A stretch of 64,000 nucleotides of DNA from an uncultured Desulfovibrionaceae bacterium (GTDB lineage Bacteria; Desulfobacterota; Desulfovibrionia; Desulfovibrionales; Desulfovibrionaceae). The position numbers and the translations under genes were made by a program. Location: positions 14,941-78,940 of the forward strand of contig CAYJAZ010000009.1 of NCBI GenBank assembly GCA_964368455.1, in the 5' to 3' direction. Of the stretch, positions 2,219 to 61,591 are shown one piece after another; position 1 is the first letter of the stretch; every line of letters begins with the position of its first letter. A model generated the notes under the pieces. That model worked only from the letters and a program-made list of their open reading frames with translations, had not been told where the DNA came from and ran no database searches.

Positions 2219-2346
2219 TAAATTCAAAAATTTTGTGAATTTTACAATGAAAATAGATTTTTTGTGGAATGGAGTGTATAAAAATAATACATGACTGAAA
2301 CAAAAAAGACACTTTTCAGCAGTAAAAACGCAAAAGAATGAATTTA
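2219..2346 (+). repeat. Copy 1 of a ~125-bp leader-like repeat (second copy 61467..61591, same orientation)
   Basis: My hand alignment gives roughly 80% identity. Shared core ggaatggagtgtataaaa(a)taatacATGa...caaaagaATGAattt. Contains a 16-codon uORF (2291..2341) whose TGA overlaps the ATG at 2338. Confidence 0.85.
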
Positions 2347-46778: not shown

Positions 46779-49253
46779 ATGCACTCAAAAAATGCCTTAA
46801 CAAATCTCAAAAATCGTTATAGAGCTGTATTAAAAAAATGTACTCTTATCAATGCTTTTGGCTCACTCGCTGTGGCAACTTTATTGCTAAGCCCAGCAAG
46901 TTCTTATGCTGATTCTCTTTTCACATCTACTGAACCAGAGTTAAACAATTTTGGCACATTAACAGGTGATCTATATAATATAGGTACTGATCAGTATTTT
47001 ATAGGAATGGTGGGATATAATCCTACGACTAACATAGGCTATACTTTAACAAACTATGCAGATGGTGTTATTTCACTTTATTCTGATACAATAGCTTATG
47101 GTATGTATATCCAAAATGAAGGTACTGTCGATCATGCTTTAATAAATCATGGCTATATCTCTGTAAAAAGTCTCGAAAGTGCATATGGCATGTCTGTATA
47201 CATTTTCCCACATGGCAGTAACTTTACCCTGACAAATACAGGAACAATTTACGTCGAAAGCATAAATGACCATGCAGATGGCATGGAAGGAAATACTCAA
47301 AGTGAAGATGGTGATCACATTCTTTTAAATACTGGGTCTATCACTGTAAAAGGTTATTATTCATCTCACGGAATGCATGCTGAAGCAGATAATGATGGTA
47401 ACCATCGTGTAACAAATACAGGAAGTATTGATGTCACAAGCATTGCTTCTTTTGCCTATGGTATGCGTGCTGAAGCGGAAGACAAGGATGGAGATCACAT
47501 TATGTTTAATAGTGGTACTATCACAGTGAAAGCTAGTAATGTGAGTTATGGCATGTATGCTGAAAGTGAGGATGATGGAGATCATACTTTAACAAATACA
47601 GGAAGTATTGATGTCACAAGTACAGCCCATCAAGCCTATGGTATGCTCGCTGAAGCGCAAGACGATGACGGAGATCACTCTATCTCAAATAGTGGCGATA
47701 TTACTGTAAAAGCGTATTCTGACGCTTATGGTATACTGGCTGACACAGAAGATGATGGCGATCATACTTTAACAAATAGTGGAAGCATAGAAGTCACAAG
47801 CTCTAATGATAAAGCTTATGGACTCTATCTAAATGGTGAAGGCACACATACTATTAACAATACAGGCATAATCTCTGCAAAATCATTATCTTCTTCTGCT
47901 TATGAAGTGTATGGACTTAACACAGACTATACTGTCGAAACATACGCAACAAGTTTACGTGATTGGGAGATTGATGATGCCGTTTTTGCAGTCACTGCTG
48001 GAGAAATTGTAAACTTTGATAATTCCACTCTCATTCTTCGTCCTGGCACAATAGCTCAAGGATTTGAACTTGGCAAAGAATACAAAGTTGCGAATATGGT
48101 GTCTAACGAAACAGCTTTAGCAGATAGCCTTGACGGAACAATAGCAGCAGGTGCAATAGCACAAGTGCAAACAGAAGTTCCCTTCTTGATAGCTCACCTT
48201 GATAATAGCGAACTTTTGAATCCTAAAGTAAGCCTTACAGCAAATATAAATAAAGACACAATTTCTCCTACGCAATTAGCAAAGATATCTTCTGGCAATG
48301 CAGATAAGAAAATTGCTAACATGGCACGCAAGCAAATCAATAGAATGATTAGAAAACGTGTTTCACAAGCAAGTACGCAAGCAATGTATGAACAAGGTGT
48401 CATTCTTGCTAGTAATAATATCCCTTATGCACCAAGCTATAAAGCCAATAAATGGGCTATATATTTAGATGCTTATACAACATATGCGAAAAACAGCGAA
48501 TATAATTACGGCACAAAAAGTTATGGTATGACAATAGGTGGCGATAAAGCTATTAACGAAAAATTAAGTGTAGGTTTTGCTATGGACTTTAGCGATTCCA
48601 CAACAGATGCACAAGACGGCCTCACAAGCGATTCAACAGCAATATCTTTTCTTGTGAATGCCGATTATTTCATCAATAAAAACTGGTATGTATCTGGAAA
48701 TATAGCCTTATCTTATGCTGAAAACGATGTAGATTATGCTTTATCTTCAATGCTCACAGCTAAAGACGATTATTCATCAATGGCTTTCAATCTAAGTGCG
48801 TCTACAGGTTATCTTTATGAAATCAATGCAAATAATGTTCTTGTGCCTGAATTTGGCTTGAATTATTTCTATGCCAATGCTGACGATATCAATGTCGATT
48901 TCGCACATGCAAGCATGTATAATATGTCTATCAAGAATGATGCTTTCTCAGCTCTATACGCACATCTCATGCTCACATGGCAAGGCGAATACAACACAAA
49001 CTACGGTATCATGAAACCAAGTGCAGGATTAGGACTTCGTCAAAATGTGACTTCTTCTGACTTTGACTCTACTGTCGAAATCTTTGGCTCTAGTTTTGCC
49101 TCTTCTGTTTCAGACAACGACACAAGCTTTATAACAAATGCTGGCCTAGAATGGGTGAATGGCAACTTCTCTGTTGGCGTCAACTACGATGGCGACTTTG
49201 GCAGTGAAGAAGTGAGCCATACAGCTTCTGTGAAATTCCGCTACGAATTTTAA
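46779..49253 (+). CDS. Autotransporter (type Va) outer-membrane protein with a repeat-rich passenger
   Basis: Extended signal peptide ending SSYA/DS. The passenger is built of ~30-aa repeats. The C-terminal ~280 aa form a beta-barrel-like region with alternating aromatic residues, ending in ...VKFRYEF. Confidence 0.85.
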   Translation: MHSKNALTNLKNRYRAVLKKCTLINAFGSLAVATLLLSPASSYADSLFTSTEPELNNFGTLTGDLYNIGTDQYFIGMVGYNPTTNIGYTLTNYADGVISLYSDTIAYGMYIQNEGTVDHALINHGYISVKSLESAYGMSVYIFPHGSNFTLTNTGTIYVESINDHADGMEGNTQSEDGDHILLNTGSITVKGYYSSHGMHAEADNDGNHRVTNTGSIDVTSIASFAYGMRAEAEDKDGDHIMFNSGTITVKASNVSYGMYAESEDDGDHTLTNTGSIDVTSTAHQAYGMLAEAQDDDGDHSISNSGDITVKAYSDAYGILADTEDDGDHTLTNSGSIEVTSSNDKAYGLYLNGEGTHTINNTGIISAKSLSSSAYEVYGLNTDYTVETYATSLRDWEIDDAVFAVTAGEIVNFDNSTLILRPGTIAQGFELGKEYKVANMVSNETALADSLDGTIAAGAIAQVQTEVPFLIAHLDNSELLNPKVSLTANINKDTISPTQLAKISSGNADKKIANMARKQINRMIRKRVSQASTQAMYEQGVILASNNIPYAPSYKANKWAIYLDAYTTYAKNSEYNYGTKSYGMTIGGDKAINEKLSVGFAMDFSDSTTDAQDGLTSDSTAISFLVNADYFINKNWYVSGNIALSYAENDVDYALSSMLTAKDDYSSMAFNLSASTGYLYEINANNVLVPEFGLNYFYANADDINVDFAHASMYNMSIKNDAFSALYAHLMLTWQGEYNTNYGIMKPSAGLGLRQNVTSSDFDSTVEIFGSSFASSVSDNDTSFITNAGLEWVNGNFSVGVNYDGDFGSEEVSHTASVKFRYEF
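47043..47921 (+). repeat. About 10 tandem ~30-aa (about 90-bp) passenger repeats
   Basis: Unit xLxNxGxIxVxSxxxxAYGMxAExxDDGDH. The most regular stretch is 47289-47768. The 29-nt DNA string acaaatacaggaagtattgatgtcacaag occurs twice, 180 bp apart. Confidence 0.85.
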
Positions 49254-51877: not shown

Positions 51878-51896
51878 GCCTCCTATGTCTTCGACA

Positions 51897-52184
51897 GTTT
51901 TTTTTGCCTCCGGCGGCCAAAGAGAAAGTAAAGCTGTTTTTTTTGCCTCCGGCGGCCAAAGGAAATAATTTCCTTTGGAAACCTTTATATGCAAGGTAAG
52001 CACATAAGAGATTAATTTAAATCGATTTTTAGAATCCGAAAAAGTTTTAAGCTGACGCTTAAATACTTTTTCGAGTTAAAATCTGTTTGCTAAAGATTTT
52101 TTTTATTTGTTCAATAGCTGTAATTGGAATAGCCTTGACTCGTCATTGCGAGAAGCTCACACAGTGAGCGACGTGGCAATCTAT
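51897..52184 (+). repeat. Modular intergenic repeat, copy A (forward), with a 26-bp tandem duplication of its first module
   Basis: gttttttttgcctccggcggccaaag occurs at 51897-51922 and 51936-51961. Palindrome ccaaaggaaat-a-atttcctttgg is at 51956-51978. The long hairpin is at 52037-52073. The cgtcattgcgag...gcgacgtggcaatctat module is at 52141-52184. All of these are shared with 55642-56275. Confidence 0.9.
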
Positions 52185-55630: not shown

Positions 55631-55641
55631 AGCGAGAAAGA

Positions 55642-55870
55642 TTTTGCCTCCGGCGGGCAAAGGGAATAATTCCCTTTGCAAACCCTAGTATGCAAAGGGA
55701 GTGCGTAGGGGGTTAACTGAAGAAGTTAAAATTTATTTTTTTATTTGCGAAAAAGTTTTAAGGGTGAAAGACTAGCGTCTCTCACCCTTAAATACTGTTT
55801 CGCTTTAAAATAGTGGAATAGTAAGATAGCATAAAACAAGTTGCCATTTGTCACTGTGTTCCAAATGTGA
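55642..55870 (+). repeat. Modular intergenic repeat, copy L (forward)
   Basis: ttttgcctccggcgg, then palindrome gcaaagggaat-a-attccctttgc (55657-55679), tatgcaaaggg-agtgcgtaggg, the long hairpin at 55747-55803, and the catttgtcact..gttccaaatgtga module at about 55843-55870. Confidence 0.9.
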
Positions 55871-55947
55871 ATAAAGCATTAAATTCCCACCTCTAAAGCT
55901 TACTCAGCTGTTCAAAACAATAAATGTAAATAAAAAAAAGAAAAAAC

Positions 55948-56275
55948 ATAGATTGCCACGTCGCTATGCTCCTCGCAATGACGAGGCTAATATATTTCTT
56001 TCAGGACTTTCGATTTTACTACTCTTACATTGCACAAAATAATGAAATCACATTTGGAACGTAGTGACAAATGCTAACTTAATCTCAATTAGAATTAATT
56101 TACACCCATTTTAAAGCGAAACAGTATTTAATGTTTTGATGCGAAGCAACAAAACTTTAAAACTTTTTCGCAAATAAAAAAATAAAACAAAATTCCAAGC
56201 AACACCCTACGCACTCACCTTGCATATAAAGGTTTCCAAAGGAAATTATTTCCTTTGGCCGCCGGAGGCAACAAA
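55948..56275 (-). repeat. Modular intergenic repeat, copy R (reverse orientation, tail-to-tail with copy L)
   Basis: The reverse complement carries the same modules in the same order: palindrome 56236-56258, hairpin 56116-56171, catttgtcact module 56048-56077. It also has the cattgcgaggagcatagcgacgtggcaatctat module (55948-55982). Confidence 0.9.
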
Positions 56276-56285
56276 ACAATAAAAA

Positions 56286-61466: not shown

Positions 61467-61591
61467 AAATTCAGAGATTTTGTAGAATTTTCAACTAAAA
61501 TGGATTTTCTGCGGAATGGAGTGTATAAAATAATACATGATTGGAGCAAAAAATTCACTTTTAGGAAGAAAAAATACAAAAGAATGAATTT
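61467..61591 (+). repeat. Copy 2 of the ~125-bp leader-like repeat (copy 1 at 2219..2346)
   Basis: Same orientation as copy 1. It has a 16-codon uORF (61537..61587) whose TGA overlaps an ATG at 61584. That ATG opens only a 23-codon ORF running into the convergent RNase II gene. Confidence 0.85.

What the first reader, a model, noticed from the sequence alone, without database searches (positions are those of the whole stretch)
55657..55803. Compensatory substitutions keep the repeat palindromes intact, and the hairpin-2 core is replaced by unrelated self-complementary inserts bounded by TTAA
Palindrome 1 reads ccaaaggaaat/atttcctttgg in copies A and R, and gcaaagggaat/attccctttgc in copy L. 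Two positions changed, and both partner positions changed with them, so the pairing is preserved.

Hairpin 2 has conserved outer arms: gcgaaaaagttTTAA ... TTAAatactgtttcgc. Its core differs completely between copies: gctgacgc in A, gggtgaaagactagcgtctctcaccc in L, and agttttgttgcttcgcatcaaaaca in R. Each core is itself self-complementary.

This covariation implies selection on secondary structure or dyad symmetry. That fits a structured RNA, a DNA cruciform or hairpin, or a dimeric protein binding site. It does not fit selection on primary sequence. The TTAA-bounded variable cores could also be nested insertions of a smaller palindromic element.
Basis: seen in the sequence. Interest (0 to 1): 0.6.

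Follow-up and report, generated by a model that had tools for sequence, protein, structure and literature searches.

The report
REP-like mosaic hairpin repeat family
The two hairpins belong to a roughly 235-base intergenic repeat present about 140 times in this 2.7-Mb genome, a new REP/MITE-like selfish repeat that keeps its hairpins through paired base changes on the strand opposite the neighbouring gene and whose first module recurs in several bacterial phyla.

Summary
Copies A, L and R are three of about 140 units of a modular repeat. The modules are an 11-nt head (GYCTCCGRCGG), hairpin 1, a weak helix, a T-rich linker, hairpin 2, a variable stretch and a 25-nt box.

Across 100 genomic copies the hairpins covary far beyond the shuffled and slid controls.

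The hairpin-2 "core" is not a foreign insert. It is the variable middle of one long stem with a conserved GC-TTY-GC apex, and it never occurs outside that context. Copy A's short form is shared with a congener.

Units lie 10-40 nt after stop codons and are co-oriented with that gene. 43 pairs are convergent and none are divergent. The two arms of a pair always differ in hairpin 2.

A.C mismatches outnumber G.T 179:25 on the gene-sense strand, so the opposite strand is the one selected to fold. This argues against a purely double-stranded dyad site.

The head-plus-hairpin-1 module occurs in many copies in Desulfovibrionaceae, Novosphingobium, Acidobacteriota and some Clostridia, also just after stop codons. 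No Rfam family matches it. No RAYT or matching transposase was found.

Best reading: a REP/REPIN- and BIME-like non-autonomous mobile repeat, a new variant of a known kind. The scan also flagged the same terminal motif in another genome (e1-4145128).

The parts
55635..55881 (+). Unit L: a full repeat unit, starting 16 nt after the rlmN stop codon
   Evidence: nhmmer family search and unit extraction; L177 in alignment A1
55646..55656 (+). Head box of L, GCCTCCGGCGG (mini-palindrome GCC-TCC-GGC)
   Evidence: C..G to T..A covariation 54:45 with 1 intermediate; the same box occurs in other phyla
55657..55679 (+). Hairpin 1 (palindrome 1) of L
   Evidence: Closing pair C-G in 79 copies and G-C in 21, with no breaks; apical pairs covary
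55683..55710 (+). Weak helix P1b (CCCTA...TAGGG with inner GCA/TGC)
   Evidence: 69.8% paired on the sense strand; 87.6% canonical on the opposite strand against 76.5%
55747..55803 (+). Hairpin 2 of L: conserved base GCGAAAAAGTTTTAA/TTAAATACTGTTTCGC, variable mid-stem 55762-55787, apex CTAGCG
   Evidence: 11 pairs with compensatory change; cores found only in this context
55845..55869 (+). Conserved 25-nt box of L, CATTTGTCACTNNGTTCCAAATGTG (6-bp inverted repeat)
   Evidence: 128 genomic copies, each 31-36 nt downstream of an arm
55951..55986 (-). Central element: a CGTC-tagged REP-like repeat (CTCGTCATTGCGAGG...GACGTGGCAATC)
   Evidence: 116 genomic copies, often between the two arms. CGTC tag, stem starting AT and CCA tail as in Di Nocera et al. 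2013
56037..56278 (-). Unit R: the inverted partner of L (head 56269-56259, hairpin 1 56258-56236, hairpin 2 56171-56116, box 56073-56049)
   Evidence: L178 in A1
51945..52075 (+). Unit A: short-core variant without the 25-nt box (head 51945-51955, hairpin 1 51956-51978, hairpin 2 about 52036-52075)
   Evidence: The site is empty in congeners G005 and G002
51906..51944 (+). Partial tandem duplicate of the head (TTTTTTGCCTCCGGCGGCCAAAG) upstream of unit A
   Evidence: similar degenerate head boxes with T-runs precede many units
52140..52181 (+). CGTC-type REP-like element downstream of unit A
   Evidence: C9:67080-67121

Best explanation
The hairpins are modules of a lineage-specific, non-autonomous repeat of the REP/REPIN/BIME kind.

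Structure.
- A roughly 235-nt unit begins with a head box and hairpin 1. This 'module 1' also occurs in other phyla.
- The unit continues with species-specific modules: hairpin 2 and a 25-nt box.
- It occurs as singlets and as head-outward inverted doublets of 450-680 bp.
- Doublets often enclose a CGTC-type REP.

Shown.
- High copy number.
- Presence or absence differs between congeners.
- Placement just after stop codons.
- Strong compensatory covariation.
- The two arms of a doublet differ.
- The strand complementary to the upstream gene is the one whose pairing is preserved.

Inferred.
- The local hairpins are needed in a single-stranded state, most likely bottom-strand DNA, for recognition by an unidentified trans-acting enzyme that copies or moves the element. 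Copies that lose pairing stop spreading.
- Arms within a doublet diverge because long perfect palindromes are unstable.
- The mixing of stem classes arises from recombination among copies.
For: Copy number and arrangement.
- About 140 units in 2.74 Mb. Many contig ends fall inside units.
- 43 convergent pairs, 0 divergent and 9 tandem. Doublets also sit between tandem genes (11 cases), so they are entities and not two independent gene ends.

Mobility.
- The unit A site is empty in G005 and G002.
- Downstream of rlmN, G007 has module 1 only and other congeners have plain terminators.

Structure.
- Covariation on 100 copies.
- Covariation on 92 cross-phylum copies of module 1: score 0.209 against 0.051 in shuffles, 0 of 500.
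- Strand asymmetry with its controls.
- In 28 doublets the arms never share a hairpin-2 class (0 observed, 3.8 expected) and share the closing pair less often than expected (13 against 19.1).

Distribution of module 1.
- 136 copies in Desulfovibrio sp. DV and 207 in Novosphingobium sp. SG707. In SG707 many of the listed copies form head-outward doublets of about 220 bp.
- In the window's own phylum the exact motif was found in 3 of 401 sampled genomes, all in the window's family. That patchiness fits horizontal spread.

Literature.
- REPs sit within 20 bp of the 3' ends of upstream ORFs, form mainly tag-outward dimers that are often heterodimers, and CGTC REPs lack a dedicated transposase (PMC3733652).
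Against: - No transposase or RAYT is linked to the element in this genome, in congeners or in 115 loci from other phyla.
- No target-site duplication or exact empty site could be defined, because the intergenic DNA of congeners is too diverged.
- Singlets follow the orientation of the neighbouring gene (20 same, 3 opposite) rather than GC skew (14:10). That is not what a lagging-strand ssDNA transposon predicts, although skew is weakly informative here.
Confidence: 0.6

Rival explanations
1. A cis-acting RNA element in the 3' untranslated region of the upstream gene. It would be read on the sense strand and act as an mRNA 3'-end stabiliser, processing site or terminator substitute.
For: - 95 of 112 nearby units start within 150 nt, typically 10-40 nt, of the stop codon of a co-oriented ORF.
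- Singlets between tandem genes are co-oriented 8:1.
- The same placement is seen in other phyla, 49 same against 13 opposite.
- Some copies stand where congeners have a terminator.
- REPs are thought to act this way (PMC3733652).
Against: - On the sense strand the helices carry 179 A.C against 25 G.T cells. That is the reverse of what genuine terminator hairpins of this genome show (34 G.T, 12 A.C).
- The hairpins are preceded, not followed, by T-runs.
- Doublets between tandem genes place one arm antisense to its neighbours.
Confidence: 0.15
2. A family of structured RNAs transcribed from the bottom strand, starting near the 25-nt box or the centre of a doublet and running outward towards the 3' end of the neighbouring gene, for example antisense regulators.
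For: - The bottom strand is the one whose pairing is preserved in every helix.
- A weak promoter-like site (TTTACT-17-AATAAT, 56015-56043, plus strand) lies just upstream of R's bottom strand.
- A sub-threshold Rfam match (Clostridiales-2, 24.8 bits against a gathering score of 58.6) falls on the minus strand of L.
Against: - No conserved promoter follows the 25-nt box across copies.
- No terminator lies on that strand; the hairpins are followed by A-runs.
- Promoter-like sites in the region are fewer than in shuffles: 6 against 13.7.
- The Rfam hit is confined to one hairpin-1 variant. Clostridial loci that carry module 1 do not reach that family's threshold.
- 140 copies and patchy phylogeny fit a selfish element better.
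Confidence: 0.12
3. A dyad-symmetric double-stranded binding site for a dimeric protein, or a cruciform. This was one of the first reader's options.
For: - Palindromy runs closer to the centre than a hairpin needs. Among distinct cross-phylum hairpins with an odd number of bases, 18 of about 42 leave only 1 unpaired base, against about 25% expected. Among those with an even number, 10 of 15 close to 2 or fewer.
- The head is a GYC-N3-GRC mini-palindrome.
Against: - A double-stranded site should be strand-symmetric. The observed mismatch spectrum is 7:1 asymmetric, with no such bias in unpaired columns.
- The apical and mid-stem sequences are highly variable, which a sequence-reading protein would not tolerate.
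Confidence: 0.05
4. The variable hairpin-2 cores are nested insertions of a separate small palindromic mobile element at TTAA.
For: - The short form TTAAGCTTCGCTTAA exists in 12 of 100 copies and in congener G005. The long forms therefore look like additions of about 9 bp per arm.
Against: - The five core classes tested are found in the hairpin-2 context; the extra counts of the palindromic classes fit matching on both strands.
- The apex GC-TTY-GC is retained in long and short forms, so the extra bases sit symmetrically within the stem.
- There is no duplication of TTAA beyond the conserved stem.
Confidence: 0.03

Closest known systems
REP sequences and REPINs (GTAG- and CGTC-tagged repetitive extragenic palindromes; Di Nocera et al. 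2013, PMC3733652; Bertels and Rainey 2011, PMC3116915)
   Same: - Many extragenic copies close to the 3' ends of upstream ORFs.
- A conserved unpaired tag next to a palindrome whose stem and loop vary.
- Singlets plus tag-outward inverted dimers, often heterodimers.
- Patchy distribution across phyla.
- As for CGTC REPs, no dedicated transposase.
   Different: - The tag is an 11-nt GYCTCCGRCGG box, not GTAG or CGTC.
- The unit is about 235 nt with three further modules, against 20-40 bp.
- No RAYT is present.
- The preserved strand is opposite to the upstream gene.
BIMEs of enterobacteria, BOX elements of Streptococcus pneumoniae and Neisseria mosaic intergenic regions (own knowledge; Neisseria mosaics mentioned in PMC3733652)
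   Same: Mosaic combinations of several short repeat modules in intergenic DNA. Here the unit modules are interleaved with a CGTC-type REP.
   Different: Different sequences and a different module order, with a head module shared across phyla.
Bacterial MITEs such as Correia, ERIC and RUP (review PMC3184786)
   Same: - Non-coding elements of 200-680 bp with terminal inverted repeats (module 1 at both ends of doublets).
- High copy number and insertion polymorphism.
- No transposase of their own.
   Different: - No target-site duplication and no parent insertion sequence were found.
- Each terminal repeat contains its own covarying hairpin.
- Half-elements are common and orientation-biased.
Integron attC sites (own knowledge)
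   Same: - They lie just downstream of an ORF and are co-oriented with it.
- Conserved flanks surround a structurally, not sequentially, conserved centre.
- The bottom strand is the functional folded strand.
   Different: - The units are dispersed, not in cassette arrays.
- There are no RYYYAAC/GTTRRRY boxes.
- No integrase link was tested or seen.

Membership tests
REP / REPIN | Short extragenic palindromes occurring as singlets and inverted doublets | tested here: met
   About 140 units; 43 head-outward doublets and 0 divergent
REP / REPIN | Terminal GTAG or CGTC tag adjacent to the stem | tested here: not met
   Module 1 carries GYCTCCGRCGG, with 1 nt before the stem. Only the separate central element has CGTC + ATTGC...GCAAT + CCA
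REP / REPIN | A cognate RAYT (Y1 transposase) gene flanked by the repeats | tested here: not met
   PF01797 finds one IS200-type TnpA on C62 with unrelated hairpins. In congeners the intact one examined in detail (G010) is IS605-type, and no module 1 lies beside any Y1 locus
REP / REPIN | Location near the 3' ends of ORFs, in unidirectional and convergent gaps | tested here: met
MITE | Terminal inverted repeats | tested here: met
   Module 1 at both ends of doublets in G000, Novosphingobium and Desulfovibrio sp. DV
MITE | Target-site duplication | tested here: inconclusive
   No shared direct repeat at the flanks of L-R or of the Novosphingobium and DV doublets. Empty sites are too diverged to place the junction
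MITE | A related autonomous insertion sequence with the same ends | tested here: not met
   No recurring ORF family next to module 1 in 115 loci. Inverted copies 0.6-4.7 kb apart enclose ordinary or orphan genes
IS200/IS605-derived palindrome-associated elements | End hairpins matching those of a resident TnpA/TnpB element | tested here: not met
   The hairpins flanking the C62 tnpA differ from the unit's; no TnpB in G000
Integron attC | Arrays of cassettes with R''/R' core sites next to an integrase | tested here: not met
   Units are dispersed over the contigs. No RYYYAAC/GTTRRRY boxes in the consensus. The integrase was not searched for
Rfam RF02937 Clostridiales-2 RNA | Score at or above the family's gathering threshold | tested here: not met
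   24.8 bits against 58.6, only for copy L on the minus strand. Loci from Clostridia and other phyla gave no match

The most novel reading that the evidence does not exclude
Module 1 (GYCTCCGRCGG + covarying hairpin + AAWCC) is the recognition end of an undescribed mobilisation system that spreads horizontally. The system would act on a folded single strand, the one opposite to the upstream gene, insert just past stop codons, and work without a RAYT. Lineage-specific bodies such as hairpin 2 would be cargo built onto this common head.
Probability: 0.25. Interest if true: 0.7.

Novelty: new variant of a known kind. Interest (0 to 1): 0.42.

Why it matters
Repeats of this kind break assemblies, shape the 3' ends of many transcription units and are used for strain typing.

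This family adds three things.
- An unusually clean natural data set of compensatory change (about 100 copies, at least 15 covarying pairs), with a clear strand signature that can separate single-strand from double-strand explanations.
- Evidence that the two arms of a doublet are kept different.
- A head module shared by distant phyla without any known transposase. This bears on the open question of how transposase-less REPs, such as the CGTC class, spread.

Tried and rejected
- Rfam at gathering and E-value thresholds on the window, on Clostridial loci and on 16 loci from other phyla. No family was found, only a sub-threshold Clostridiales-2 hit.
- Y1 transposase and TnpB searches in the genome and genus. 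These found only IS200/IS605 elements unrelated to the repeat.
- Clustering of ORFs next to module 1 in 115 loci. The only recurrent 'protein' is a spurious translation of the motif itself (...PFGRRRQ).
- ORFs between distant inverted copies are ordinary genes or orphans with no Pfam match.
- Full-text search for the motif string found no paper. Searches for 'Clostridiales-2' and for Desulfovibrio MITEs found nothing relevant.
- Plasmid collection: only unannotated Novosphingobium megaplasmid copies.
- Metagenome scans for the rlmN junction and for the 25-nt box found nothing.
- Exact-protein look-up of RlmN to name the organism found nothing on record. The taxon stays undetermined.
- Search for an empty site among 'relatives' of the Novosphingobium genome gave no matches.
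- The GC-skew test of replication-strand bias was uninformative: genes are only 54% co-oriented with skew.
- Whole-unit folding energies slightly favour the sense strand. I set this aside because U-rich linkers inflate G.U pairing outside the conserved helices.

Full report
**What is there**

A genome-wide profile search found about 140 units in the 2.74-Mb, 34% G+C assembly. Many lie at contig ends.

The unit is about 235 nt long and has these modules in order:
- a head box, G[C/T]CTCCG[G/A]CGG;
- hairpin 1, S-CAAAGG, a variable 9-mer, CCTTTG-S, followed by AAACC;
- a weak helix, P1b;
- a T-rich linker;
- hairpin 2, GCGAAAAAGTTTTAA, a variable mid-stem, the apex GC-TTY-GC, then TTAAATACTGTTTCGC;
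- TTTAAAAT and about 32 variable nt;
- a 25-nt box, CATTTGTCACTNNGTTCCAAATGTG.

L (55635-55881, plus strand) and R (56037-56278, minus strand) form one head-outward doublet. Copy A is a short-core unit that lacks the 25-nt box.

**Covariation**

On 100 distinct units (alignment A1) with 52 named pairs:
- 92.7% of cells pair, against 85.2% in shuffles (0 of 500 reach it);
- 363 cells changed on both sides, against 115 in shuffles;
- the covariation score is 0.169, against 0.058 in shuffles and at most 0.062 for slid partners.

Hairpin 1 has 4 covarying pairs and hairpin 2 has 11. The head's mini-palindrome switches between C..G (54 copies) and T..A (45 copies) with a single intermediate. At least 12 apical variants of hairpin 1 exist, and almost all are complementary.

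That test is clearly not met.

**Hairpin 2 is one stem, not an insert**

- The cores fall into a few classes that share the apex GC-TTY-GC.
- All five classes tested occur only between AAAAGTTTTAA and TTAAATACT.
- The short form TTAAGCTTCGCTTAA is present in 12 of 100 units and in congener G005.
- The long forms are therefore symmetric extensions of the stem, not copies of another mobile element.

**Arrangement and context**

- Neighbouring units form 43 convergent pairs, 0 divergent pairs and 9 tandem pairs.
- The gap between the 25-nt boxes of a pair is mostly 110-180 nt.
- That gap often holds a second repeat family, CTCGTCATTGCGAGG...GACGTGGCAATCCA, with 116 copies.
- This second family has the CGTC tag, a stem starting AT and a CCA tail, as described for CGTC-tagged REPs (PMC3733652).
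- Units start 10-40 nt after the stop codon of a co-oriented ORF in 95 of 112 nearby cases.
- Singlets between tandem genes are co-oriented 8:1.
- Doublets occur between convergent genes (15 cases) and between tandem genes (11 cases), so they are entities in their own right.
- In 28 doublets the two arms never share a hairpin-2 class (0 observed, 3.8 expected). These are heterodimers, as reported for many REP families.

**Which strand**

- In the helices, A.C mismatches outnumber G.T 179:25 on the gene-sense strand. Every helix is at least as canonical on the opposite strand. For P1b the figures are 87.6% against 76.5%.
- Unpaired columns show no matching mutational bias: 14.1 against 13.9 per column.
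- As a positive control, terminator-like hairpins elsewhere in this genome show the expected sense-strand signature, 34 G.T against 12 A.C.
- The same G-to-A position recurs in three otherwise covarying hairpin-1 variants. Their G-forms occur in Desulfovibrio MAGs.
- So the folded species is single-stranded and is the strand complementary to the upstream gene.
- This argues against a symmetric duplex site and against a simple sense-strand 3'-UTR RNA.
- Orientation follows the neighbouring gene (20:3), not GC skew (14:10). Skew is weakly informative here.

**Mobility**

- The unit A site is empty in congeners G005 and G002.
- Downstream of rlmN, G007 has module 1 alone, G008 has a related simple hairpin, and others have ordinary terminators or contig breaks.
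- Within the genus, G002 and G005 carry units through hairpin 2. G006-G008 carry only module 1. No match was found in G001, G003 or G009.

**Beyond the genus**

- The 18-nt head-plus-stem pattern occurs in Desulfovibrionaceae, Novosphingobium, Acetobacteraceae, Acidobacteriota, Thermodesulfobacteriota, Oscillospiraceae, Ruminococcus, Christensenellaceae and Selenomonadaceae.
- It again lies 5-50 nt after co-oriented ORFs, 49 same against 13 opposite.
- Hairpin 1 covaries strongly there too: score 0.209 against 0.051 in shuffles, 0 of 500.
- Desulfovibrio sp. DV has 136 copies and Novosphingobium sp. SG707 has 207. In SG707 many of the listed copies form head-outward doublets of about 220 bp whose two ends carry different hairpin apices.
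- In the window's own phylum the exact pattern was found in 3 of 401 sampled genomes, all in its own family.
- High copy number with patchy distribution fits horizontal spread of a mobile element rather than an ancient RNA gene.

**What it is not**

- No Rfam family matches at gathering score. The Clostridiales-2 hit is far below threshold.
- No RAYT and no TnpB were found, only IS200/IS605 elements with unrelated hairpins.
- No recurrent neighbouring protein was found.
- No target duplication could be defined.

**Reading**

The best-supported account is a REP/REPIN- and BIME-like non-autonomous repeat. Its local hairpins are required in a single-stranded state, probably bottom-strand DNA, for propagation by an unidentified enzyme. 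Selection against long perfect palindromes keeps doublet arms different.

Two steps are inferred rather than shown: the enzyme, and whether the folded strand is DNA or RNA.

The family is a new variant of a known kind. The cross-phylum head and the strand signature are its more interesting features. The organism's name was not determined.

Noticed in passing
window 55951-55986 and 52140-52181; 116 copies genome-wide: A second repeat family (CTCGTCATTGCGAGG-variable-GACGTGGCAATCCATG) fits the CGTC-tagged REP pattern: CGTC tag, AT-start stem, CCA tail. It often forms its own inverted pairs about 90 nt apart, with or without the units.
   Followed up: partly
upstream of many units, e.g. window 51880-51944; G000:C4:92067 region: Degenerate copies of the head box followed by T-runs (GTCTGCGACGC-T7, GTCTATGACG-T6) are stacked in tandem just before the true head. 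A similar box, GCCTGCGGCG, forms a central hairpin in Novosphingobium doublets. It is unclear whether these are targets, scars or slippage products.
   Followed up: partly
L254:468-998 (-) and L255:347-778 (-) (Novosphingobium sp. SG707): Two low-G+C orphan ORFs (176 and 143 aa, no Pfam match) each sit between inverted module-1 copies 600-750 bp apart. The arrangement is cassette-like.
   Followed up: partly
G000 contigs C1 and C2: About 77 kb of C1 (14.8-91.4 kb) and C2 (14.4-90.9 kb) carry the same units at the same spacings in reverse orientation. This suggests a duplicated or redundantly assembled region, in line with the 6% contamination estimate.
   Followed up: no
G000:C62:2069-2518 (L128:1435-1884, minus strand): A single IS200-type TnpA gene (149 aa) on a 2.6-kb contig, next to an EAL/GGDEF-like gene fragment and flanked by its own GC-rich hairpins.
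   Followed up: yes
window 47307-47846: Three tandem 180-nt repeats (100%, 74% and 64% identity to the first), not examined.
   Followed up: no
window 2220-2345 and 61467-61591: A roughly 125-nt sequence is duplicated 59 kb apart at 83% identity.
   Followed up: no
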